A DNA stretch of 64,000 nucleotides from positions 32,001 to 96,000 of IMG/VR virus record IMGVR_UViG_3300020577_012633. One strand, 5' to 3'. Below the pieces are notes generated by a model. That model ran no database searches, was not told the DNA's origin, and saw only the letters and a program-made list of their open reading frames with translations. Below, piece after piece: positions 10,869 to 51,300 of the stretch. The position numbers were made by a program, and so were the translations under genes. The stretch is from a virus. Taxonomy: Duplodnaviria; Caudoviricetes. Numbering within the stretch: the first letter of the stretch is position 1; each line of letters opens with the position of its first letter.

Positions 10869-11876
10869 TTATTCGCCGGTTGCGTCATAGTCGCCGCACA
10901 TAAAGTCATCTGAAATGCACTTCAGTATAACTCTACCAATTTTCTCATCCAGTCTTTCTTTTACTGGACGAGTTACATTACCTTCTCTGATATGGTTTGC
11001 CCCATTAATCAAAGAATTTCCCTTGCTTAGTTCAATAATTTTTGCAAGACTGAACGGTCCTCTATACAATACTGGTACTATTTCTACTCCGCATGAAAAA
11101 GCCAATTGGCAAGTAGTATCCCAATCAAGATAAGAACCATCAATCATTATATCAAAAAGTCTAAAGCCTTTCGTTTCGGAAAGACCATAACGCATTTTCT
11201 TTTGAGTACCGTAAAGTTCTCCAAAAATAACAATTTGGCTTCTCGGGTCTCTTGCAAGCAAGCTACCAGCAAGAAGATTTATTTCAGGAGTTGACCAAGG
11301 AAGCCAGTGTGTAGATCCATCAATATTTTTACGCTGAACAGTCCTTCCACCAGCTACTTTTTCCCAATTTCCTTCTTCATTTAGAATAAGCCCAAGCCGG
11401 CAATTTTTGCCATGTATTTTTTCAGTAACAATAACTTCTTCATCATCTTTGAAGACTGCTGGGAAATTGCGAATATTTTCAATATCAGTATAAGTAGAAA
11501 AGAAAGGATTGCTAGGCATAGCATCCTTATCTCTAGAATCAAATGGAGGCTGATATCTGGTAATTCCAAGTTGATCTGCTACGTTGTCTCCTTCAGAGCC
11601 AACAGGATCAATAATAAGTCCAAAAGAAGGCTCATTACGGAGTCTCTTTGGGATTACTCTTCCGTTACTTAGCAATTTAGAAACACCAAGTTTTTCTGCT
11701 AGTTCAATCGGGATTATGGAATCTGGAGGAATGTATGTAACCAAATCTCCAGATTTATAGTTCCCTTTTTGTACGCAGCATTGCCAACCACCAACAACTG
11801 CCAGATCCAAACGATCTGCATTCGGGTGTGGAGAGACTTTTGTTATTTTGCAAGTCTTTACAATCGTGCTGCTCAT
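10869..11876 (-). CDS. RNA ligase, DRB0094-like family with N-terminal OB fold
   Basis: HPNADRL N-terminus, motif I TEKIHG, FGELYG, FRLFDI, REGNV, RVILK. Confidence 0.9.
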   Translation of the reverse strand: MSSTIVKTCKITKVSPHPNADRLDLAVVGGWQCCVQKGNYKSGDLVTYIPPDSIIPIELAEKLGVSKLLSNGRVIPKRLRNEPSFGLIIDPVGSEGDNVADQLGITRYQPPFDSRDKDAMPSNPFFSTYTDIENIRNFPAVFKDDEEVIVTEKIHGKNCRLGLILNEEGNWEKVAGGRTVQRKNIDGSTHWLPWSTPEINLLAGSLLARDPRSQIVIFGELYGTQKKMRYGLSETKGFRLFDIMIDGSYLDWDTTCQLAFSCGVEIVPVLYRGPFSLAKIIELSKGNSLINGANHIREGNVTRPVKERLDEKIGRVILKCISDDFMCGDYDATGE

Positions 11877-28375: not shown

Positions 28376-29092
28376 ATGGAAACAATTATACCAAAAATAT
28401 TTCACCAAATATGGCTCAATGGGAAACTTCCTGAAGAACATTGTTGTTTTAGAGATCATATGTTAGAACTGCATCCTGGATGGGAATATAAACTTTGGAC
28501 AAAAAGAAATATGCCCAAACTCATAAATCAAGATATTTTTGACAAATGGCCTGAAATGTGTTTCAAAGCTGATGTACTTAGATATGAAATATTGTACAAA
28601 TTTGGAGGGATTTACATAGATACTGATTTTTTGTTCTACAAAAATATAGAAGAATGTATGCAAAAGGAATATCTTATAGTCAATGAATTTGATGAACCGT
28701 ATTTTCATGCGGGTTGTTATCATATGACGAATAATTGTCTTATAGGAGCTGTTCCAAAAAGCGCATTAATGCAATATGTTGTATACAAACTAAGAGAAAG
28801 TATGCAAAGATATGAGGAATTAAAGAACAAATATAATCATTTTGATGCAGGTCTTTCAACTGTTGGTCCATATTTTTTTGACAAATGCGTAGAAGAGATT
28901 ATTGGAAGAAGTTTCTCTTACGATACAAAATATTTCTGTCCATTTAGACCTCATGATTTGCCTCATAAACAATATGAAAATTTTCCTGATGCATACGCAA
29001 TTCATTTATGGAATAATAACTGGAGAACCTATGGTGGAGCTGAAGTTTATAAAACTCTTCCATGTTACAAAAGAAAACATGGAATAAAATGA
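28376..29092 (+). CDS. DXD glycosyltransferase (GT32/Gly_transf_sug)
   Basis: IPKIFHQIW, ADVLRYEILYKFGGIYIDTD, VGP, AIHLW. Confidence 0.9.
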   Translation: METIIPKIFHQIWLNGKLPEEHCCFRDHMLELHPGWEYKLWTKRNMPKLINQDIFDKWPEMCFKADVLRYEILYKFGGIYIDTDFLFYKNIEECMQKEYLIVNEFDEPYFHAGCYHMTNNCLIGAVPKSALMQYVVYKLRESMQRYEELKNKYNHFDAGLSTVGPYFFDKCVEEIIGRSFSYDTKYFCPFRPHDLPHKQYENFPDAYAIHLWNNNWRTYGGAEVYKTLPCYKRKHGIK

Positions 29093-29766
29093 TACCAAAA
29101 ATATTCCATCAGATATGGTTTGAAGGTAAAATTCCAGAACCGTTTTTTTACTTTTCTGAACATTTAAAACAACTTCATCCTGGATGGGAATATAAGTTTT
29201 GGAATATAAATAATATGCCAGAACTTATTAATCAAGAAGCATTTGAATTTTACAACAATGTAATATTCAAATCTGATATTCTTAGATATGAAATGCTTCA
29301 TAAATTTGGAGGAATATATGTCGATTTTGATTTCCTGTTTTATAAAAATATAGAACCGTTAATAACAGATGATTATTTTTTAGTTTTTGATGTTGACAAC
29401 TTGCATATAAATAACTGCATTATGGGATTCTCAAAAGAAAATGAAATAATAAAATCAGTAATTGATGAAATACCAAAATCACTCGCAATTGCTAAACAAA
29501 TAAAAAACGGAAGAGACAATTTACAAGTTGGATTAAATGCAGTTGGTCCAAGATTCTTACAAAGAACTATTTCAAAGTTTGATAAAATCAAATTTATTGA
29601 CAGAAAATTCACTCATCCATTCGGAACAGAAGAGGTAATAGAAAAACAATTAAATGAGTTTCCAGACTCTTACGGAGCGCATTTTTGGAGTTCTCATAAT
29701 GGAACATATTTTATAGAAGCTCATAAAAAGCTTCCATGCTACATCATGCGTGAGAATGTTCACTAA
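29089..29766 (+). CDS. DXD glycosyltransferase (GT32), tandem paralog
   Basis: IPKIFHQIW, SDILRYEMLHKFGGIYVDFD, VGP, AHFW. Confidence 0.9.
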   Translation: MIPKIFHQIWFEGKIPEPFFYFSEHLKQLHPGWEYKFWNINNMPELINQEAFEFYNNVIFKSDILRYEMLHKFGGIYVDFDFLFYKNIEPLITDDYFLVFDVDNLHINNCIMGFSKENEIIKSVIDEIPKSLAIAKQIKNGRDNLQVGLNAVGPRFLQRTISKFDKIKFIDRKFTHPFGTEEVIEKQLNEFPDSYGAHFWSSHNGTYFIEAHKKLPCYIMRENVH

Positions 29767-35595: not shown

Positions 35596-35840
35596 TGTTG
35601 ATTGTACCTGCTAATAAGATGCAAAAACTCATTAAGATACTGTTGTGATTCTTCTTTCGTTTGTCCAGAAAACCCAATAGCTTTGAATGGAAATTTTTCT
35701 GGAAATTTGCGAGAAAATTCAAAAAATATATGAGATACGGAATTTCCTCCTATTGTTATAGAATCATTATTTTCTAATATGAATTGTAAAACAATCGGAA
35801 ATTCAAATTGCTCATCATATTCATGTATATTATTTTCCAT
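35592..35840 (-). CDS. hypothetical protein (paralog of 34866-35141)
   Basis: Same shared motif as 34866-35141. Confidence 0.65.
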   Translation of the reverse strand: MENNIHEYDEQFEFPIVLQFILENNDSITIGGNSVSHIFFEFSRKFPEKFPFKAIGFSGQTKEESQQYLNEFLHLISRYNQQ

Positions 35841-36444
35841 TGTGATTTTGTTGACAATATGAATACATCGCTATCCCTGAAGCAACTCCAACATTTAAAC
35901 TTCTAACACTTCCAAATTGCTTAATATATACAATCTCTTTACATTCATTTATTACATCAGATGTAAGACCTACAGTTTCCTGACCAAAACACATAATAAC
36001 ATGTTTTTCTTTTGGCCAAACGTATTCGTCTAATGGTTTGGCATTAGGCAGATCATCAAATCCTATAAATACATTATCGCCCATAATATCTTTGATACTA
36101 TCAATATGTATTATGTTTTCATAATGATTTGTTCCTACCGCCCCTCTGGAATCAAATTTTCTTTTGCCCAAAACATAAAGATTCTTACCTAGAAACGCAT
36201 TTGAATTTCTGATAACGCTACCTATATTGAAATCATGAAAATGATTTGTTATAAGGACTGAAAAATTGTGTCTCTTTGTGTCAAGCTTTACCTTGATAGC
36301 ATCTGTTGTCCAATATTTATATACATCAATTATGTTTCTTTTATCTACCTGACATTTCTTTTTACATTCATAAGCTTCATCTATAGTGCTATAACGCTTC
36401 TTACAAGAAGTGCATTGAAATTTTATTGTTATTTCAGTTGTCAT
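35830..36444 (-). CDS. SpoU/TrmH-family RNA 2'-O-methyltransferase
   Basis: FNIGSVIRNSNAF, FGQETVGL, VRSLNVGVASGIAMY. Confidence 0.9.
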   Translation of the reverse strand: MTTEITIKFQCTSCKKRYSTIDEAYECKKKCQVDKRNIIDVYKYWTTDAIKVKLDTKRHNFSVLITNHFHDFNIGSVIRNSNAFLGKNLYVLGKRKFDSRGAVGTNHYENIIHIDSIKDIMGDNVFIGFDDLPNAKPLDEYVWPKEKHVIMCFGQETVGLTSDVINECKEIVYIKQFGSVRSLNVGVASGIAMYSYCQQNHNGK

Positions 36445-36503
36445 AAAAGAATAACGACCAAACAAAAAGAAAAGACCATGAATTCACCTTATAAATTTTG
36501 CAC

Positions 36504-36534
36504 AAAAAGAACAAGACTGCTCTCGCAGTCTTGT
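36504..36534 (-). terminator. intrinsic terminator after the porin gene
   Basis: ACAAGACTGC-GAGA-GCAGTCTTGT followed by TCTTTTTT. Confidence 0.8.
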
Positions 36535-36556
36535 CTTTGGATAATCTTATAAACGA

Positions 36557-37741
36557 TTAGAACAAAAGTTGGAACTGCATACGGAATGACATTTCGCCAT
36601 CGCCAGTAGATCCAAGAAGTCCTGTATTAGAAAAATTCGTCATATTTGCGAGATTCGAAGTATCATCGAATGAATAGACCATATCCGTAGTAATCTTTGC
36701 AGCCTGCCCATAAAGGTAGTAATTCAAACCAACAGTTGCAAATGCGAAATTGTTATTTGAAAAGCCTCTTGCCGAATCAGCAAAAACTTCATCATAGCGA
36801 ACAAATGGTTCAATTCTTTCTGTAACTCTGTATCCGCCTTGAGCAGCTAATCCAAAGTCTTCATATGTTGCAGCAGGATCTTCAACACTTCGTCCAACGC
36901 CAGAAACAAACGCATTCCATCCATGATTCTTCCAAGTCAAATCACCTGTGTAAGAATATGAAGTGCTTTGAGTTGAGCCTTCTTGATAATGGAATGCAGC
37001 TCCAGCTAGCAAAGCATTCTCGTCATTAGTTTCAGAAGTAAACTGGCTAAAATCTCCGTTATTTCCCAAAATGGAATATTCGCCTCTTACAGTAAGAGCA
37101 GTATTAGATTCAGAAGGATCTGTATATTCTGTGTTGACTGTATTAAAGCCATCAGAAACAGCTCCAACCAAACGGAAACTATCAGTATTGTAAGATAGCT
37201 GAACTCCCTGAGAACGTCCTTGACCAAAAACGTAAGAAACGATAGAACGATCTATTGCAAGCTGATAGCGATCAGAAACATTAACTTCCTTCATAAAAGG
37301 AAGCTTAAACTGTCCAACCTGGAATCTGCCACCATCAAAAGCCCTAATACCTGCATAAGCATCAAACAAAGTAAAATTTCCGCCTTGGCGATTAAATCCG
37401 CCTTCTAGCATGAAATCAATTTGTTCATTTATATTTCCGCTAAAACGGATTCGAGCAAGAGGATCACTAAATCCTACATTGTTATCACTATTGCCTTCGC
37501 GGTTTGTATTCCAAGTATAACGGAACTGCACATCACCGCCGATATTCAATCTCGCTCCATTGCCATTAGTAATGAAAAAGCCGTTGGCATCATGACCTGA
37601 ACTATTCAAATTAGAACGAGACTGAGCATCTGCTACCAAAGCAGCATTCTGCAATCTTGCAACATCTGAAGTCTGTCCGATTGCAACAGAACCAAGAAAA
37701 ACAGAAATCCCAAAGAAACCTAAACTAGAAATCTTTCTCAT
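36557..37741 (-). CDS. outer-membrane beta-barrel porin (OprO/OprP-like)
   Basis: Signal peptide, RLNIGGDVQFRY, DAY, VGQFKLPF, GRSQGV, alternating beta strands, C-terminal FRMQFQLLF. Confidence 0.85.
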   Translation of the reverse strand: MRKISSLGFFGISVFLGSVAIGQTSDVARLQNAALVADAQSRSNLNSSGHDANGFFITNGNGARLNIGGDVQFRYTWNTNREGNSDNNVGFSDPLARIRFSGNINEQIDFMLEGGFNRQGGNFTLFDAYAGIRAFDGGRFQVGQFKLPFMKEVNVSDRYQLAIDRSIVSYVFGQGRSQGVQLSYNTDSFRLVGAVSDGFNTVNTEYTDPSESNTALTVRGEYSILGNNGDFSQFTSETNDENALLAGAAFHYQEGSTQSTSYSYTGDLTWKNHGWNAFVSGVGRSVEDPAATYEDFGLAAQGGYRVTERIEPFVRYDEVFADSARGFSNNNFAFATVGLNYYLYGQAAKITTDMVYSFDDTSNLANMTNFSNTGLLGSTGDGEMSFRMQFQLLF

Positions 37742-37982
37742 TTCAAAATCCTTTAATTGGGTAATTACAAAAATTATACTAAACCTACCCTGGTCTAATA
37801 TAAATAAACTAAGCCATACGAAAAGGTATCGGCTGATAGCGAACGCTAACTCCTTAGCATTCACACAATCTCTTTCGGCTTTTGATGATATTTTTCTTTA
37901 GGAATAGAAACAGTCACATTTGGGTATGTTGTACATAAATCTTTACAAAATGAAATTTTAGGCTAAATTTTGCCAAAAATCA

Positions 37983-38691: not shown

Positions 38692-39255
38692 TTACTGGTT
38701 TCCGTACTTTTCTTTGAGACGAGCATATTCTTGTTTATCATGCTCTTCATTTAACAGTTTCATTCTTTCTTTTTCTTGCTGTTCTTCTTGTTTCTTTTTT
38801 TGCTCCTTTTCTAGTTTTTGTTTTTCCTCGTTTGCAAGCCTAATTGCTGTCGCATTTTTCTTTTTCTGGTTAACTATATTTAAGAGTTCTTCCCGATGTT
38901 CCCAGTCAGTCGGAGTATCTAGAGTTCCGTTTTCTCCGCTAATACAAAAATTTTCATCAGTGAAGCTATATTTTGAAATAATCAGGTGTGAATATTCGTA
39001 TTCAGGATCATGTTCTTTGGTCCGAGACTTAGCGATGCTTTCTTCAAACTCGCTATAGTATTTGCATCTGTGAACTTCATCATAGAATTCTCTATCAAGT
39101 TTAACAATATGATTGGCGATATCTTCAAGAGAATTGAAAATTTCAGTTACCATATTGGCATCCTTGGAGTGCCGCCAATCGCACTCGCCTCTGAAATAAC
39201 TTGCAAGTTCGCAGTTATTGATATGACTGATAACGATGACAGGAAAACTGTTCAT
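38692..39255 (-). CDS. hypothetical protein with C-terminal coiled coil
   Basis: 187 aa. Confidence 0.7.
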   Translation of the reverse strand: MNSFPVIVISHINNCELASYFRGECDWRHSKDANMVTEIFNSLEDIANHIVKLDREFYDEVHRCKYYSEFEESIAKSRTKEHDPEYEYSHLIISKYSFTDENFCISGENGTLDTPTDWEHREELLNIVNQKKKNATAIRLANEEKQKLEKEQKKKQEEQQEKERMKLLNEEHDKQEYARLKEKYGNQ

Positions 39256-40421
39256 GATCTATTCTCCATATTTGATAAGTTCAAAAGTTGATATTTACGA
39301 AAAAGATTTCTCTTTTTAGAATCAGCAGGAATCGGTTCTGTGGCAATGGCAGTCACTTCGTAATCCTCACAATTATTGTTTATTGATGAAACAGTCGATA
39401 CTACATTGTATGGAGGTTTATTATGACAAACATTACCGTTGGATCTTCCTTTGGGAAATGGAAAGTCATCTCTGTTGGGCATAGACCCGAAGGAAGCCTT
39501 TCTAGGGCCAAATATTTTCTTTGTGAATGCCAATGTCCTGCTAAAACTAGAAGAATGGTTATAGGGCGTAGTCTTCGCGAGGGAACTAGCAAAAGTTGTG
39601 GATGCATTGGTCCATCTCAAAATACTGGGAAAAATGAAATTAACAAAACGTATGGAAAATGGACGGTTCTTGATGAAGCTAAAAAACCTGTTCATATAAC
39701 TGGAAGAGGTAAGTATTTTTTGTGCGAATGTTCTTGTATTCATAAGACTAGAAGAATCATTTCTGGTCACGCACTCCGTAGCGGAGGATCTAATAATTGT
39801 GGCTGTAAATGGAGATATTCGATTAGAAATGTAGACGCTCCATTTAATATGTTGCTTGGAAATTATATAAACAGCGCGAATAAAAGAAACAAGTCTTTTA
39901 ACTTGTCTTTGGATGACATTAAGCGTCTTTCGCAAGATATTTGTTTTTATTGCGGACAACAACCAATGGCAACTTTGAAGCCATTTGGCAAGCATAATTT
40001 TGTTTATAATGGTATTGACAGGATAGACAATTCTCTTGGATATACCATTAAAAATTGTGTTTCTTGTTGCAAGAACTGCAATACCGCAAAACTTGACATG
40101 AACGTTGACCAGTTTAAGAATTGGATTACATCGGTCTACCTGAGACTTTGTAAGTGAATTCGAATTTCTTGGTCTATCAGGTTCTTGAAACTTGGCGACC
40201 TGAATGCCATAATATTGGAGACGATCGTGAGCTTTCAAAAGCTCGCTTTCGTTCTTTACGCCAATAAGAACAAGATGAGGATGTTCTTGGTTCTAACCAG
40301 GAGCAAAAGCTCTGATTGCCTCAATCACAGCGTGTGCGCTTTGAACAGCGATCTGCGACTGCGAGAGGTCTTCTCTAACGAGAACGTACATGTAAACAGT
40401 TTGTGATTGTACCTACGTCAT
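39252..40421 (-). CDS. Pth2-like peptidyl-tRNA hydrolase with two in-frame TAG codons and an 807-nt in-frame insertion
   Basis: AGGAG RBS, ATG 40421: MT*VQSQTVYMYVLVREDLSQSQIAVQSAHAVIE...PG*NQEHPHLVLIGVKNESELL...FQEPDR [insert 39366-40172] DYEVTAIATEP...LFRKYQLL. TAG at 40413-40415 and 40293-40295. Confidence 0.85.
39394..39400 (+). promoter_or_regulatory. GTCGATA element upstream of the HNH gene
   Basis: Followed by a GGAGG RBS and ATG 39423. Confidence 0.5.
39423..40157 (+). mobile_element. HNH homing-endonuclease-like gene inserted antisense inside the Pth2-like gene
   Basis: Two CECxC..SCGC repeats, CFYCG, GIDRIDNSLGY..NCVSCCKNCN. Confidence 0.9.
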
Positions 40422-42359: not shown

Positions 42360-42373
42360 TTTAACCTTTCAAA

Positions 42374-42448
42374 TGCCCTCGGCGGGACTCGAACCCACAA
42401 CTCTCAGAATTTTAGAGATTCCGGTTCTGCCAATTGAACTACGAGAGC
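42374..42448 (-). tRNA. amber suppressor tRNA (anticodon CTA)
   Basis: GCTCTCG/CGAGGGC-A, D arm GTTC-AATTGGCA-GAAC, anticodon arm GGAAT-CTCTAAA-ATTCT, T arm GTGGG-TTCGAGT-CCCGC. Confidence 0.9.
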
Positions 42449-42452
42449 AATA

Positions 42453-45080: not shown

Positions 45081-45986
45081 TTAGAGGCGAATGAGGTCGG
45101 TATTTGAACTAGAAGCCTTATCGAGGTTCTTGATTGCGTTACGAACAACAACAGAAGTAGTCCCGTCCCAGCTATCCGCAACCTTATCAGCATCCTCGCC
45201 TTCGATAACCTGAATGGTTGAAACAATTACTTCTGCCAACTTGGATTCGTCAGGAATTACAATAGCTCGCTGGCCAAGCAAGTCACGCCATACTTTTATA
45301 GCGCCCTGTGTTTCGGTAGCGCCGGTCTTAACAATGATATGGAAGACTTCCCAGTTCTTCTCAGCCAACTTGAGAAGATCTTTAATGGACATATCCGACT
45401 CAACATCATCACCAAAAAATTGCTTGATTTGGCTCTTGGAAAGCTTGATTGGGCATTCGTCGCCAACGGTAAAGAGATAACCCTTGCGCTTGCGCTTGGT
45501 GATGGCATCGCATTTGGTCTTATTAGCAGCAAAATACCATAGAATCGGGTACGATTCGCCACCGTTTCCTCCGCCGTTTCCTTCGATGTATATTTTTTCA
45601 ACCTGCTTGGTGATTTCGGTAACACCAGCTTCAAATTGAGTCACTTGAATCGGAGCGCGATCACAAGTTGCGTCTCCAATACCTGCAATAAGAATATGAG
45701 GATCAGATACAGGCTTTCTCTCGTAAATTTCCTTCATGACAATACCAAGACCTTTCTTGATAATGTCTTCCGCAAGACGACCCATAGAGCCAGTTTCATC
45801 AACGCCAATAATGAGAGGAGTTGAATTAGGATTCTTGTCTGAATCAACAGATTCACGGAACTTGAACTTAGAAGGATCAAGTCCGTTATCCATGCCAGAA
45901 CTTGTAAAAATAGCAGATGCTGGTTTAGATGAAACTGAAGAACTATAGCTGGTCCAATCACTTGCGTCAAAACGTGTGCCGCCCAT
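45081..45986 (-). CDS. vWA-domain protein
   Basis: MIDAS DETGSM, GIGD, QFE, EGNGGGNGGESY, FTVGDE. Confidence 0.85.
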   Translation of the reverse strand: MGGTRFDASDWTSYSSSVSSKPASAIFTSSGMDNGLDPSKFKFRESVDSDKNPNSTPLIIGVDETGSMGRLAEDIIKKGLGIVMKEIYERKPVSDPHILIAGIGDATCDRAPIQVTQFEAGVTEITKQVEKIYIEGNGGGNGGESYPILWYFAANKTKCDAITKRKRKGYLFTVGDECPIKLSKSQIKQFFGDDVESDMSIKDLLKLAEKNWEVFHIIVKTGATETQGAIKVWRDLLGQRAIVIPDESKLAEVIVSTIQVIEGEDADKVADSWDGTTSVVVRNAIKNLDKASSSNTDLIRL

Positions 45987-45989
45987 AAA

Positions 45990-47018
45990 CTACTCCTTGT
46001 AAATGTCGCTATCTTTTACCGTCATTTCAACGAAGCGACGTTCGCCGAAACTTTTATCTCTTACTTTTTCCCATTTTTTATATTCTTCAAAAGCATTACC
46101 GTTATTTGAATTTCTTAAGAAGTTTATAAATGGCTTCGGAAAAGAATCGTCATGTAATAGATTCATACCTGTTGAATCACCAAGACATTCTAAACCCACT
46201 TGTTTAATCAAAGTTAGATCCAAAACAGGATCAGCTATTTTTTTATCAAATATATCTGATGGACAATTATTCTTGGAATGAGCTGGTAAAGCAACAAGAT
46301 TTTTGCCGGCAGTTTGAGAATACCACCATCCTCCATAGAGCAATACACTATGGAATTTTGGAGAAATAAAACAAGTTGTAGTTGAAATGGCATTATGCGT
46401 AATGCCAATTGTTCGCATATAACATGCTAAGTTATGCAAAGAACTCATAATCCAAGCAACATGCTTTGGGTCAATCGGACCAAGAAAATCAATTACATCT
46501 TGAAGCAAGAAAACATCTGGAGTTTTCGCCAACACTAGAACAGATTTGCCGTCAGATGTTTCAAAATTATCAAGAACTACAGGCAAATATTTTTCAATTT
46601 CTTTTTTCAGTTTATCATCTTTGTAAACAAAGGAATGTTTTATAGTTTCAAGACCTCTACCGAATAGGTCTTTTGCAGAATTGTCAACAATATAACAAAG
46701 GACTCTTTTACCATAGGCGACTTCACCTAGTTCAAAAGCCCTTTTGCGAAGATATTTTATTGTTCTGATTTTACTATCAGCGCCTTTGAGTACAAGAGTA
46801 TTAGGTTCTGCCCAGGTTTTGTTTTTTATTTTTGAATTAACGAGATCGTATAATTGTCTAATATGTTCTACTATTTTACCTGAATTTTTTGATTTATTTA
46901 CATCAGGATGCCATTTTAGGAGAAGCTTCCTAAAAACAGCTTTAGCATCTTCTTCTGAATTAGGAAAAAGACGTTCTGGTTCGCTATTTGGGATACTAAG
47001 AATTTCTTCTTCTGTCAT
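45990..47018 (-). CDS. J-domain fused to a degenerate protein-kinase-like domain
   Basis: FRKLLLKWHPD; KHVAWI, ITHNAIS, LLYGGWWY. Confidence 0.8.
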   Translation of the reverse strand: MTEEEILSIPNSEPERLFPNSEEDAKAVFRKLLLKWHPDVNKSKNSGKIVEHIRQLYDLVNSKIKNKTWAEPNTLVLKGADSKIRTIKYLRKRAFELGEVAYGKRVLCYIVDNSAKDLFGRGLETIKHSFVYKDDKLKKEIEKYLPVVLDNFETSDGKSVLVLAKTPDVFLLQDVIDFLGPIDPKHVAWIMSSLHNLACYMRTIGITHNAISTTTCFISPKFHSVLLYGGWWYSQTAGKNLVALPAHSKNNCPSDIFDKKIADPVLDLTLIKQVGLECLGDSTGMNLLHDDSFPKPFINFLRNSNNGNAFEEYKKWEKVRDKSFGERRFVEMTVKDSDIYKE

Positions 47019-49449: not shown

Positions 49450-50535
49450 TTATATTCCCAATTTATTCGTCTCTCCAGAATTTCCAAAGAACCAATGTTC
49501 ATTTGCTGTAACGTGTCCTTTTCTAACAAATTTTGCTATAGACCTTGAAAAATCTTTATAATGAAAACTATCGGCCAACCGAACAACGTATCCCTCACAG
49601 TCCTCACCATTTATTACTGGTTTATAAAGTTCTTTAATCGTTTTTTCATTCCATATTCCTCTATAAATAATCGGTACTATTGGAATGCCAAGAAGTTGAA
49701 ACCATTCGTTAGTTGTATCCCAATCAAGACAAATTAGATTGTTCCAAGCTGAAATCCCATAGCAATAACTTTCCAAATTCTTATATGGAATGGAATGTTT
49801 TGCATAAAGATTTTCTACAACAAATCTCATGTTCTCAGGAATATCATGACAAATATTCCCGTGAAAATTCTTTATCCAACTTTTTGACCAGTGTTTCTTA
49901 TCTGCTAAAGAACGAGCATGAATATAGTCATTATACATTGTTGTATTTTCACCATCCATCTTGATGGTTACTACAACCTCTTTGCCATTAAATATGTCTA
50001 TATTCTTTATAATGCGATCATCGTCAGTAGCTCCAGGAGACCAAGGCAAATGCCAAGTTCTTGGATACTTTACATAACGACTAAATAAATTAAGTACATT
50101 GCCTTCGTTCAATACTTTTTGAACAGAAATATCATCAAAAAGCTCGCCTCTGAGTCTTGTCCCATTGGGCATAATAGGATTAGCCCATTTATCATACACT
50201 TGATCATCGTAAAGATGTTCTGGTATAATCTTATCTTTTTCTAGGATTCCGCAAGCTGCTCTAATCTCTTCAACACATAAAATTGTCATTTCAGCTTTGA
50301 TATGACATTCAGGGCAAAGGCTAGAGCCGTTGTTGATTAGATATCCACCGAAAGTTTCCGGGTCTATCCATAGTCGTCTTTCTAAGATATGATGAGCATC
50401 GAGATTCGTCTTAGTTGATGTCTTAAGACAAATAACGCATTTGTGATCATCACGAGCAAAAACCTTCTCTCTAAATTCGTTTCTAGAAAGAATTTTCCGT
50501 GACCGATTTACATAGTTGTTTGAATTTGACTTCAT
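49450..50535 (-). CDS. HNH-domain/RNA ligase fusion
   Basis: N-terminal RDDHKCVIC..DAHHI..LCPECH; KYPRTWHLPWSPG, motif I KMDGEN, EGYVVR, AKFVR. Confidence 0.88.
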   Translation of the reverse strand: MKSNSNNYVNRSRKILSRNEFREKVFARDDHKCVICLKTSTKTNLDAHHILERRLWIDPETFGGYLINNGSSLCPECHIKAEMTILCVEEIRAACGILEKDKIIPEHLYDDQVYDKWANPIMPNGTRLRGELFDDISVQKVLNEGNVLNLFSRYVKYPRTWHLPWSPGATDDDRIIKNIDIFNGKEVVVTIKMDGENTTMYNDYIHARSLADKKHWSKSWIKNFHGNICHDIPENMRFVVENLYAKHSIPYKNLESYCYGISAWNNLICLDWDTTNEWFQLLGIPIVPIIYRGIWNEKTIKELYKPVINGEDCEGYVVRLADSFHYKDFSRSIAKFVRKGHVTANEHWFFGNSGETNKLGI

Positions 50536-51214
50536 CAAAATTTCTTTTCATTAGGTTAATGTCCTTATGCGTCCATTGAACATTGCCCTCGATATATCCT
50601 TTACTTGAGTCTATGCGATCAAGAGAAGCAGTTGCGCTACCGTGACTGGTTTTTGGAAAGGAAATCTCCAAACCCGAAAGTGCGCATTTCCCTTTTTGGT
50701 CAAGATAGAGTTTCCAACCATATTGAATAGAAATGGAAAAGTCTAATTTTCGTTTTGATGCCTGAATTCTATACAAGGACCATCTACTTGCATTAATGTC
50801 TCCACAACCTTTGAATAGCGGATTGCTTTCACCGAATCTGCGAATTTCATTTCTGGCACAGCCGCAAGACTTGACTTCGTTTCGAAGAAGAACCCCAGGT
50901 AATCTTTCTACATTTTTCTTTCCGCAAGAACAATCACACATTGCGATCCATCGTCTTCCCCATTTACCCTCCTTGACTCGCATATCAATGACGGATAATT
51001 TACCAAAAACTTTACCGATAAGTTCTCCGTTGTATTCAGGAACATCTCGATTTTTTCTATCTATTGCTGAACAATTTTTGCGTTTTCTTAATCTATTTAG
51101 GGTGGTTTTACTAATATCAAATTTTGAACATATTTCTTCTATAAACTCCCCTGAACGATAAGCTTCTACTATCGCCTTTTCCTGCGATTCCGTAAGTCTC
51201 TTTCCTTTAACCAT
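50483..51214 (-). mobile_element. HNH homing-endonuclease-like gene
   Basis: N-terminal HTH, CDCSCG..KSCGC, GKCALSG, SLDRIDSSKGY..NVQW; AAGGAG RBS before ATG 51214. Confidence 0.88.
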
Positions 51215-51300
51215 AAATGCTCCTTTCGACAACATGAAAGGAATACAAAAATGATTAGTCTCATTCCTTCTTAGAAGATATCATTTTTACAAATTGCCAT

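What the first reader, a model, noticed from the sequence alone, without database searches (positions are those of the whole stretch)
39366..40172. Antisense HNH gene inserted in frame into Pth2, leaving 269 stop-free codons and no intron or intein signature
Seen: removing 39366-40172 (807 nt) restores FQEPDR-DYEVTAIATEP, the expected spacing near the Pth2 catalytic region. The insert is nearly all HNH gene plus its promoter and RBS on the opposite strand, with about 15 and 57 nt of flank, too little for a group I/II core. The translated ends lack intein C/S...HN motifs. Yet the Pth2 frame has no stop across it: the genes are codon-aligned and the HNH gene never uses TTA, CTA or TCA in about 16 Leu and 21 Ser codons (my count). 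Inference: a homing endonuclease tolerated as a translated antisense loop, removed by protein-assisted RNA cutting and ligation (two RNA ligases are encoded), or skipped by ribosomal bypass (GAT codons flank both junctions). Caveat: this genome favours CTT/TCT, so shorter antisense ORFs are common.
Basis: partly seen in the sequence, partly recalled or inferred. Interest (0 to 1): 0.8.

Follow-up and report, generated by a model that had tools for sequence, protein, structure and literature searches.

The report
Backward endonuclease gene read through by Pth2
A selfish DNA-cutting (HNH) gene sits backwards, codon for codon, inside a huge phage's peptidyl-tRNA hydrolase gene, and in three diverged copies it avoids exactly the three codons that would stop the host frame, so the host protein is most likely made straight through it, with no intron or intein.

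Summary

- **The insert.** A Pth2-like gene (minus strand, 40421-39252) is interrupted after ...FQEPDR by 807 nt (39366-40172). The insert is an intact HNH gene on the plus strand (39423-40157) with its own Shine-Dalgarno sequence. Uninserted alleles in related huge phages read EPDRNNEITAIA.
- **Replication.** Two further copies (66-67% HNH amino-acid identity to the window's copy) sit at the same site in other huge phages. All three leave the Pth2 frame fully open.
- **Codon avoidance.** TTA, CTA and TCA are absent from all 23-31 Leu/TCN-Ser codons of each copy, although A-ending codons make up 34% elsewhere (P about 1e-6). About 9 stops are expected per 244 codons. A same-strand paralog has 13, and 17 low-GC relatives have 6-49.
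- **Which strand is selected.** The HNH protein is under purifying selection; the antisense peptide is not.
- **No splicing signature.** I found no intron, intein or bypass signature.
- **Structure model.** The two Pth2 halves assemble into a complete Pth2 fold, with the insert as a low-confidence loop leaving a beta-hairpin turn.
- **Mobility.** Mosaic similarity points to homing.

Best reading: an unspliced, translated-through homing cassette. The closest published case is the same-strand ShiLan element. Earlier unchecked AI notes of this scan report similar antisense HNH inserts in other phages.

The parts
39252..40421 (-). Pth2-like gene read straight through the insert: 389 codons, two in-frame TAG codons, stop TGA at 39254-39252
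   Evidence: Translation has no TAA or TGA. Pfam PTH2 scores 27 bits against a cut-off of 23 on the N-terminal part. The profile matches both parts.
40173..40421 (-). N-terminal Pth2 part (83 codons), ending ...FQEPDR. M 40391 is an alternative start.
   Evidence: 88% identical to the uninserted homolog P0002. It keeps all family-invariant residues.
39366..40172 (.). 807-nt mobile cassette (net +269 codons), absent from uninserted alleles
   Evidence: DNA and protein alignments with uninserted L003, L006 and P0002-P0005, and with inserted L004 and L010.
39423..40157 (+). HNH (beta-beta-alpha-metal) endonuclease gene, 244 aa, with two N-terminal Cys-rich repeats. It uses no TTA, CTA or TCA codons.
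   Evidence: PHROG HNH / endonuclease VII families, E 1e-15 to 1e-12. tblastn hits to phage HNH genes, E 1e-28. PacI-like motif. Substitutions between copies concentrate at codon position 3.
39366..39422 (+). HNH leader with Shine-Dalgarno GGAGG (39412-39416), 6 nt before the ATG. It contains a block that is nearly identical in the window and L004.
   Evidence: The block is unique in the window. A promoter was not identified convincingly.
39252..39365 (-). C-terminal Pth2 part, DYEVTAIATEP... (37 codons plus stop)
   Evidence: Aligns to the C-terminal third of uninserted homologs. Profile hit E 9e-9.
40293..40295 (-). In-frame TAG (codon 43), conserved in five related phages
40413..40415 (-). 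In-frame TAG (codon 3 from ATG 40421), conserved in relatives
42373..42449 (-). tRNA with anticodon CUA (amber suppressor), needed to read the two TAG codons of pth2
   Evidence: ARAGORN.
38692..39255 (-). Downstream gene whose ATG overlaps the pth2 stop (ATGA). It has its own GGAG.
   Evidence: The gene is conserved in L004 and L010.

Best explanation
The insert is a free-standing HNH homing-endonuclease cassette that has colonised the coding sequence of a Pth2-like gene without an intron or an intein.

**How it avoids breaking the host gene.** It lies antisense and codon-aligned. In that phase only three sense codons (TTA, CTA, TCA) would make a stop in the host frame. All three have synonyms, so purging them costs the endonuclease nothing.

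**What follows.**
- Ribosomes translating pth2 read through the 269 extra codons. They re-enter the C-terminal part in frame and make a 389-residue Pth2.
- The antisense-encoded segment is a poorly ordered loop leaving a beta-hairpin turn just after the conserved Asp.
- The endonuclease is made separately, from an antisense transcript with its own Shine-Dalgarno sequence.
- It spreads by cutting uninserted pth2 alleles during co-infection, with repair from the inserted copy.

**Shown here:** the anatomy, the codon avoidance, its persistence through divergence, purifying selection on the HNH protein, uninserted alleles, and mosaic similarity.

**Inferred:** actual translation through the insert, retained Pth2 activity, HNH cleavage specificity, and the HNH promoter.
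For: 1. **Three diverged copies at one site.** The window, L004 (=L005, L011) and L010 have HNH amino-acid identities of 66-84%. All leave the host frame free of TAA, TGA and TAG.
2. **Specific codon avoidance.** There are 0 TTA/CTA/TCA among the 31, 23 and 27 Leu/TCN-Ser codons. The same genes use A-ending codons at 34% in four-fold families and about 70% for Lys/Gln/Glu. P(zero) is 4e-8, 4e-6 and 3e-7.
3. **Persistence through divergence.** Counting only codon states in columns that vary between copies (40 states), P is about 1e-6. It is 1.5e-3 even at half the genome's share of these codons.
4. **Controls.** About 9 stops are expected per 244 codons, and 0 of 95 ORFs of at least 150 codons are antisense-open. 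The same-strand paralog HNH2 has 13 antisense stops. Among 18 relatives in viral contigs, 17 (GC 0.27-0.61) have 2-49; for the 14 of these whose ORF is at least 180 aa the range is 6-49. The only one with zero is a 67% GC contig.
5. **Selection on the sense strand.** Differences fall at sense codon positions 1, 2, 3 as 56, 51, 106. Of the 149 differing codons, 67 are synonymous for the HNH protein and 16 for the antisense frame. The endonuclease protein is selected; the antisense peptide is only kept stop-free.
6. **Uninserted alleles exist.** They include P0002, which is nearly identical to L004's N-terminal part.
7. **Mosaic similarity.** L010 is 58-67% identical to L004 over most of the N-terminal Pth2 part but 82-92% in the cassette. 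Its C-terminal part is 94% identical to the window's.
8. **Structure.** The uninserted model has the Pth2 fold (TM about 0.7). In the read-through model, residues 1-86 and 352-386 reach pLDDT 80-91. They superpose on Pth2 3erj_A at Z 14.3 and rmsd 2.6 Å over 110 of 116 residues. The insert is below pLDDT 50.
9. **Intact host residues.** The window's Pth2 keeps all 22 residues that are invariant in uninserted homologs.
10. **Independent samples.** River-metagenome contigs span both junctions.
Against: - There is no direct evidence of translation or of Pth2 activity.
- The insertion lies 1-3 residues after the conserved Asp, next to the presumed active site, so a 270-residue basic, partly hydrophobic loop could well inactivate the enzyme.
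- L010's Pth2 has lost 3 of the 22 invariant residues, which may mean decay after invasion.
- AlphaFold assembling the two halves does not show that they fold in vivo.
- The benefit of an open frame could lie in the operon rather than in Pth2 (see the first rival).
- The three copies descend from one ancestor, so the evidence is for maintenance, not for three independent origins.
Confidence: 0.6

Rival explanations
1. Same anatomy and same read-through, but Pth2 is inactivated. The frame is kept open only for the operon: an 800-nt untranslated stretch would invite Rho-type polarity or mRNA decay, or would uncouple the downstream gene whose ATG overlaps the pth2 stop.
For: - Almost all genes lie on the minus strand in long runs (145 of 155 crude ORFs).
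- The downstream ATG overlaps the pth2 TGA.
- The insert sits beside the conserved Asp.
- L010's Pth2 has lost invariant residues.
- Unchecked AI notes of this scan describe backward HNH genes bridging neighbouring genes in other phages.
Against: - The downstream gene has its own GGAG. In L010 pth2 stops 26 nt before it, so coupling is not strict.
- The window and L004 keep every invariant Pth2 residue and re-enter the C-terminal part in frame.
- The frame is also free of stops in the last 57 nt, where polarity would matter little.
Confidence: 0.22
2. The insert is removed by an undescribed mechanism. Either the RNA is cut and religated (two RNA ligases are encoded), or the antisense peptide is spliced or cleaved out of the protein. 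The conserved Asn-Asn-Cys lies three residues before the 3' junction.
For: - Two PF09414 RNA-ligase genes are present.
- I(N/E)NN-C is conserved in all three copies.
- The block around it is conserved even at synonymous sites.
Against: - Rfam finds no group I or II intron at E up to 10, and only 72 nt lie outside the HNH ORF.
- The junctions do not pair better than shuffled controls (z -0.13, -1.34, +0.32).
- Pfam finds no Hint or intein domain in the read-through protein.
- The insert does not start with Cys, Ser or Thr (P, L, L), and the antisense peptide is poorly conserved (45%).
- RNA-level removal would not need an open frame.
- Conservation at the nucleotide level fits an HNH leader better.
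Confidence: 0.06
3. Pth2 is a dead gene (two TAG codons plus an insertion), and the open frame is a by-product of codon bias or of a one-off filter at the time of insertion.
For: - The genome favours CTT and TCT.
- Stretches of 150-168 codons open on both strands occur seven times in 123 kb.
- TAG still ends 18 of 155 crude ORFs.
Against: - The TAG positions are conserved in five lineages, including uninserted ones, and a tRNA-CUA is encoded.
- The frame stays open after 28-29% nucleotide divergence, with 40 changed codon states at risk and none a stop complement.
- There are no frameshifts, and the invariant residues are kept.
Confidence: 0.04

Closest known systems
ShiLan domain: 'hidden' HNH insertion in the DNA methylase of mycobacteriophages (Arsenault, Gosselin and Gogarten 2025, PMC11855218; Gosselin et al. 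2023, PMC9957025)
   Same: - An HNH gene is inserted inside a conserved phage gene.
- The host frame has no stop across it, and no intron or intein signature is found.
- The distribution is patchy and homing-like.
- The insert is predicted to be translated as a loop.
   Different: - ShiLan's HNH lies on the same strand, in another frame, with a GTG start and no ribosome-binding site.
- Here the HNH lies on the opposite strand, codon-aligned, with its own Shine-Dalgarno sequence.
- Here the open frame is explained by purging three synonymous codons, which I tested statistically in three diverged copies.
Inteins carrying a homing endonuclease, such as PI-SceI and HNH inteins (own knowledge)
   Same: They insert in frame at a conserved site of a host protein, are translated with the host, and spread by homing.
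   Different: Here there is no Hint fold and there are no splice-junction residues. The endonuclease is not part of the translated insert, because it is read from the other strand.
Group I intron-encoded HNH endonucleases of phages, such as I-HmuI and I-TevIII (own knowledge)
   Same: An HNH homing endonuclease interrupts a conserved phage gene, and alleles with and without it coexist.
   Different: Here there is no ribozyme, only 72 nt lie outside the ORF, and the host frame is kept open, which an intron does not need.
T4 mobA plus the gene 60 bypass cassette, and genes split by free-standing endonucleases such as mobE in Aeh1 nrdA (own knowledge)
   Same: A free-standing HNH cassette enters a coding region, and the damage is handled at the level of translation or subunit assembly.
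   Different: Those cases split the gene or skip 50 nt. Here the gene stays one continuous frame of 389 codons.
Rickettsia palindromic elements: selfish DNA translated in frame within host proteins (own knowledge)
   Same: Selfish DNA is tolerated as an in-frame, translated insertion in a surface loop.
   Different: Those elements are 100-150 bp and non-coding. This one is 807 nt and encodes a full endonuclease on the other strand.

Membership tests
Pth2 (PF01981) peptidyl-tRNA hydrolase | Sequence match above the curated cut-off | tested here: met
   The N-terminal part scores 27 bits against a cut-off of 23. NCBIfam and PDB profile matches are weak.
Pth2 (PF01981) peptidyl-tRNA hydrolase | Pth2 alpha/beta fold | tested here: met
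   The uninserted homolog's model has TM 0.69-0.75 to 3erj and 2zv3. The read-through model aligns to 3erj_A at Z 14.3, rmsd 2.6 Å, over 110 of 116 residues.
Pth2 (PF01981) peptidyl-tRNA hydrolase | Catalytic residues and hydrolase activity | not testable with these tools
   The Asp of EPD is invariant in the alignment. From memory, the catalytic Lys of archaeal Pth2 seems to be replaced (SQ in place of GK); I did not verify this.
HNH / beta-beta-alpha-metal nuclease | Match to HNH family profiles | tested here: met
   PHROG families annotated HNH or endonuclease VII, E 1.8e-15 to 1e-12. tblastn to annotated phage HNH genes, E 1e-28. There is no Pfam or NCBIfam hit.
HNH / beta-beta-alpha-metal nuclease | Catalytic motif with a Cys4 zinc site | tested here: inconclusive
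   CxxC...GIDRIDNSLGY...CCKNCN aligns to the PacI motif only at E 0.14. The motif is conserved in all three copies.
Homing endonuclease gene (mobile) | Alleles with and without the element at one site, with the element more similar than the backbone | tested here: met
   82-92% in the cassette against 58-67% over most of the N-terminal Pth2 part for L004 versus L010. The C-terminal part is mosaic.
Homing endonuclease gene (mobile) | Cleaves the uninserted allele | not testable with these tools
   This needs an enzyme assay.
Intein | Hint domain, and Cys/Ser at the N-junction with (H)N followed by Cys/Ser/Thr at the C-junction | tested here: not met
   There is no Hint or intein Pfam hit at E up to 1. 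The insert starts with P, L or L and ends ...C(E/D)xY before E. The insert is below pLDDT 50.
Group I / group II intron | Ribozyme core | tested here: not met
   Rfam, both strands, E up to 10: no intron family. Only 15 + 57 nt lie outside the HNH ORF. The junctions do not pair.
Translational bypass (T4 gene 60 type) | Matched take-off and landing codons across a short gap | tested here: not met
   The gap is 807 nt. L010 has GAT at the 5' junction but AAT TAC at the 3' junction.
ShiLan-type unspliced in-frame HNH insertion | Host frame stop-free across an HNH-encoding insert without splicing motifs | tested here: met
ShiLan-type unspliced in-frame HNH insertion | HNH on the same strand, out of frame | tested here: not met
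   The HNH is on the opposite strand and codon-aligned. For the definition see PMC11855218.

The most novel reading that the evidence does not exclude
Antisense, codon-aligned, stop-purged cassettes are a general third route, besides introns and inteins, by which homing endonucleases colonise coding DNA. The host enzyme stays active while carrying a roughly 270-residue junk loop beside its active site. The endonuclease adapts only through synonymous codon choice.
Probability: 0.4. Interest if true: 0.8.

Novelty: new variant of a known kind. Interest (0 to 1): 0.7.

Why it matters
Homing endonucleases are thought to enter coding sequences only when an intron or an intein removes them. One published exception, ShiLan, is still unexplained.

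This case is clean and replicated, and it shows how the cost can be avoided without any splicing. In the codon-aligned antisense phase, only three synonymous codons must be avoided for the host ribosome to pass.

If the read-through protein is active, three things follow:
- Enzymes can tolerate very large unstructured insertions at conserved hairpins.
- Gene callers systematically mis-annotate such loci as broken genes.
- Depletion of antisense stops becomes a simple genomic signature for finding more such elements.

It also puts a mobile element inside an amber-gated gene of a phage that encodes its own amber suppressor tRNA.

Tried and rejected
- I used the search for related loci instead.
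- **Searches that found nothing.**
  - blastn of the locus against the phage collection gave no match.
  - The single-protein scan of viral contigs with the HNH found nothing.
  - The protein database search with the antisense peptide found nothing, probably because gene callers call the HNH strand instead.
  - The leader block occurs only in the L004/L005 phage in viral contigs and is unique in the window.
- **RNA structure.**
  - The Rfam E-value scan gave only a sub-threshold glutamine-riboswitch-like hit outside the element.
  - The leader's fold is not significant (z -1.9).
  - The junctions do not co-fold better than shuffled controls.
- **Promoter scan.** It gave no convincing promoter for the HNH gene.
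- **Public reads.**
  - Only contigs were available. They showed no joints, so neither an uninserted allele nor a spliced form was seen.
  - One 198-nt contig from a metatranscriptome library is identical to 39589-39786. Its strand is unknown and DNA carry-over cannot be excluded, so it says nothing about expression.
- **Alignment problem.** Alignment A4 misplaced the C-terminal part of the uninserted proteins. I replaced it with A5.
- **Literature.** An AI note mentions a 2025 preprint on inteins with opposite-strand endonucleases. I could not find it in five searches.
- **Split gene with reinitiation.** Rejected, because no conserved in-frame start precedes the C-terminal part.
- **Identity of the TAG residue.** TAG=Q was used only as a reading convention. 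The residue actually inserted is unknown.

Full report
**What is there.** The window is part of a 123-kb viral record that CheckV rates 24% complete, so it is a fragment of a huge phage. On the minus strand, a Pth2-like gene starts at ATG 40421, with a second possible start at 40391.
- It runs to ...FQEPDR at 40173 and resumes at 39365 with DYEVTAIATEP..., ending at TGA 39254-39252.
- The N-terminal part passes the Pfam PTH2 cut-off (27 against 23 bits).
- A profile of uninserted homologs hits both parts (E 7e-37 and 9e-9).
- Between the two parts lie 807 nt. They consist of a 244-codon HNH gene on the plus strand (39423-40157), 57 nt of leader with GGAGG six bases before the ATG, and 15 nt after its stop.
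- The HNH identity rests on PHROG families (E about 1e-15), on tblastn hits to annotated phage HNH genes (E 1e-28), and on a PacI-like metal-finger motif. Pfam and NCBIfam do not recognise it.

**Uninserted and inserted alleles.**
- The nearest protein homologs (P0002-P0005, 68-88% identical) and three viral loci (L003, L006, L007) read EPDRNNEITAIA without interruption.
- A second phage carries a diverged copy of the same antisense HNH at the same site. It appears as two IMG/VR contigs of 494 and 371 kb and one ENA contig (L004 = L005 = L011).
- A third phage also carries one (L010, on a 465-kb contig).
- The HNH proteins are 66-67% identical between the window and the other two, and 84% between L004 and L010.
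- In L004 and L010 the HNH stop codon directly abuts the Asp codon of EPD. The element is therefore essentially the gene plus its 57-nt leader.

**Is the open frame chance? No.**
- All three copies are free of TAA, TGA and TAG in the Pth2 frame.
- The two frames are codon-aligned, so only the sense codons TTA, CTA and TCA could make stops.
- Each copy has 23-31 Leu/TCN-Ser codons and uses none of the three. The same genes use A-ending codons at 34% in four-fold families and about 70% for Lys/Gln/Glu. That gives P(zero) of 4e-8, 4e-6 and 3e-7.
- From the phage's own codon usage, about 9 antisense stops are expected in 244 codons. None of the 95 ORFs of at least 150 codons is antisense-open.
- The longest other stretches open on both strands are 150-168 codons, against 255 here.
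- The three copies share ancestry, so I also counted only codon states in alignment columns that vary. There are 40 at-risk states and none is a stop complement. P is about 1e-6, and 1.5e-3 even at half the genomic share of these codons. This shows maintenance, not just a filter at the time of insertion.
- The property does not belong to the family as a whole. The same-strand paralog at 50483-51235 has 13 antisense stops. Among 18 relatives in viral contigs, 17 have 2-49 (6-49 for the 14 whose ORF is at least 180 aa), and the only one with zero is a 67% GC contig. Further relatives in metagenome contigs have 2-49.
- The other two antisense phases of the window's HNH have 8 and 19 stops.

**Which strand is selected as protein?**
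- Between the window and L004, differences fall at sense codon positions 1, 2, 3 as 56, 51, 106.
- Of the 149 differing codons, 67 are synonymous for the HNH protein but only 16 for the antisense frame.
- Amino-acid identity is 66% in the sense frame against 45% in the antisense frame (the other pairs are).
- The endonuclease is a functional protein. The antisense peptide is constrained only to lack stops.

**Mobility.**
- P0002 differs from L004's N-terminal part by one residue but lacks the insert.
- L010's backbone is only 58-67% identical to L004 over most of the N-terminal Pth2 part and cannot be aligned upstream of it. Its cassette is 82-92% identical to L004's, and its C-terminal Pth2 part is 94% identical to the window's against 51% to L004's.
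- This mosaic is what homing with co-conversion produces.
- Low-coverage river-metagenome contigs span both junctions of the window allele.

**How the interruption is handled.**
- Rfam finds no intron on either strand at E up to 10.
- Only 72 nt lie outside the HNH ORF, and the two junctions do not pair better than shuffled controls.
- The read-through protein has no Hint or intein domain.
- The insert begins with P, L or L and ends ...NNC(E/D)xY before Glu.
- Above all, RNA splicing or bypass would not need an open frame. Its active maintenance implies that ribosomes traverse the insert.
- The uninserted homolog's model (pLDDT 80) has the Pth2 fold (TM about 0.7 to 3erj and 2zv3). It places the insertion point in the turn P82-N86 of a beta-hairpin.
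- In the model of the 389-residue read-through protein, residues 1-86 and 352-386 have pLDDT 80-91. They superpose on Pth2 3erj_A at Z 14.3, rmsd 2.6 Å, over 110 of 116 residues. Residues 87-351 are below pLDDT 50.
- The insert peptide is basic (pI 10-11) and rich in Ser, Asn, Ile and Phe.
- The window and L004 keep all 22 residues that are invariant in uninserted homologs. L010 has lost three of them.

**Interpretation.** I conclude that this is an unspliced, translated-through homing cassette. What is not settled is what selection protects. It could be Pth2 activity, which is my preferred reading. It could instead be uninterrupted translation of the operon, since the next gene's ATG overlaps the pth2 stop, although that gene has its own GGAG. 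No tool here could test translation, activity or cleavage.

**Comparison with what is known.**
- The closest published case is the ShiLan element of mycobacteriophage methylases. It is an HNH gene hidden in an insert that leaves the host frame stop-free, has no intron or intein features, and is predicted to loop out (PMC11855218).
- ShiLan's HNH lies on the same strand in another frame. That paper does not discuss an antisense arrangement (no occurrence of the relevant words).
- Here the gene is antisense and has its own ribosome-binding site, and the mechanism of transparency is explicit and statistically supported.
- Earlier AI notes of this scan report similar antisense HNH inserts in other phage genomes. 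These notes are unchecked. They led me to the ShiLan papers, and I do not count them as evidence.
- I could not find the 2025 preprint that one of those notes mentions.

**Context.**
- The pth2 gene has in-frame TAG codons at codons 3 and 43. They are conserved in the window, L003, L004, L006 and L010.
- A tRNA-CUA lies 2 kb away.
- TAG still ends 18 of 155 crude ORFs. Read-through of TAG therefore looks selective rather than genome-wide.
- The insert also avoids TAG: none of its 27 CTN codons is CTA.

Noticed in passing
window 40413-40415 and 40293-40295 (-); tRNA at 42373-42449 (-): pth2 has in-frame TAG codons at codons 3 and 43. They are conserved in the window, L003, L004, L006 and L010, and a tRNA-CUA lies 2 kb away. 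TAG still ends 18 of 155 crude ORFs, so amber read-through looks gene-specific or timed. The residue inserted is unknown; the Q in database homologs probably comes from gene calling with code 15.
   Followed up: partly
L007:5001-5009: The most distant viral homolog of this pth2 has TGA, not TAG, as its third codon (ATG AAG TGA). Either it uses a different start or that phage uses another recoding.
   Followed up: no
window 50483-51235 (-) and 49450-50538 (-): A paralogous HNH gene (31% identical, same strand as its neighbours, 13 antisense stops) lies just upstream of a PF09414 RNA-ligase gene and overlaps it. A second PF09414 gene is at 10869-11876.
   Followed up: partly
window 39373-39410 (+): A block of about 38 nt in the HNH leader is nearly identical between the window and L004, even at sites that are synonymous in both frames. 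The adjacent coding DNA is about 70% identical. The block is unique in the window. Its function (promoter, leader or recognition element) is unexplained.
   Followed up: partly
window 28376-29766 (+): Two tandem DXD glycosyltransferase genes lie on the plus strand in a GC 0.31 island, against the almost uniformly minus-strand gene order.
   Followed up: no
L003:5256-5537: The uninserted Pth2 of this related phage has a C-terminal Cys-rich extension of about 60 residues that looks like a zinc ribbon.
   Followed up: no
L010:2345-3484 (-): The inserted Pth2 of this phage has replaced three residues that are invariant in the family (H50S, L51V, V52I, in P0002 numbering). This may be decay after invasion.
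   Followed up: partly
window 39589-39786: A 198-nt contig from a wastewater metatranscriptome library (X8) is identical to the interior of the insert. Its strand is unknown and DNA carry-over cannot be excluded.
   Followed up: partly
window 45081-47018 (-): Two ORFs of 301 and 342 aa are separated by a single TAG. They would fuse into 659 aa if TAG is read through. Another ORF outside the window (854 aa) would gain 190 codons in the same way.
   Followed up: no
window 35830-37864 (-): A SpoU-type RNA methylase gene and a gene with a Porin_O_P match (E 9e-11) lie near the locus. A porin-like gene is unusual in a phage.
   Followed up: no
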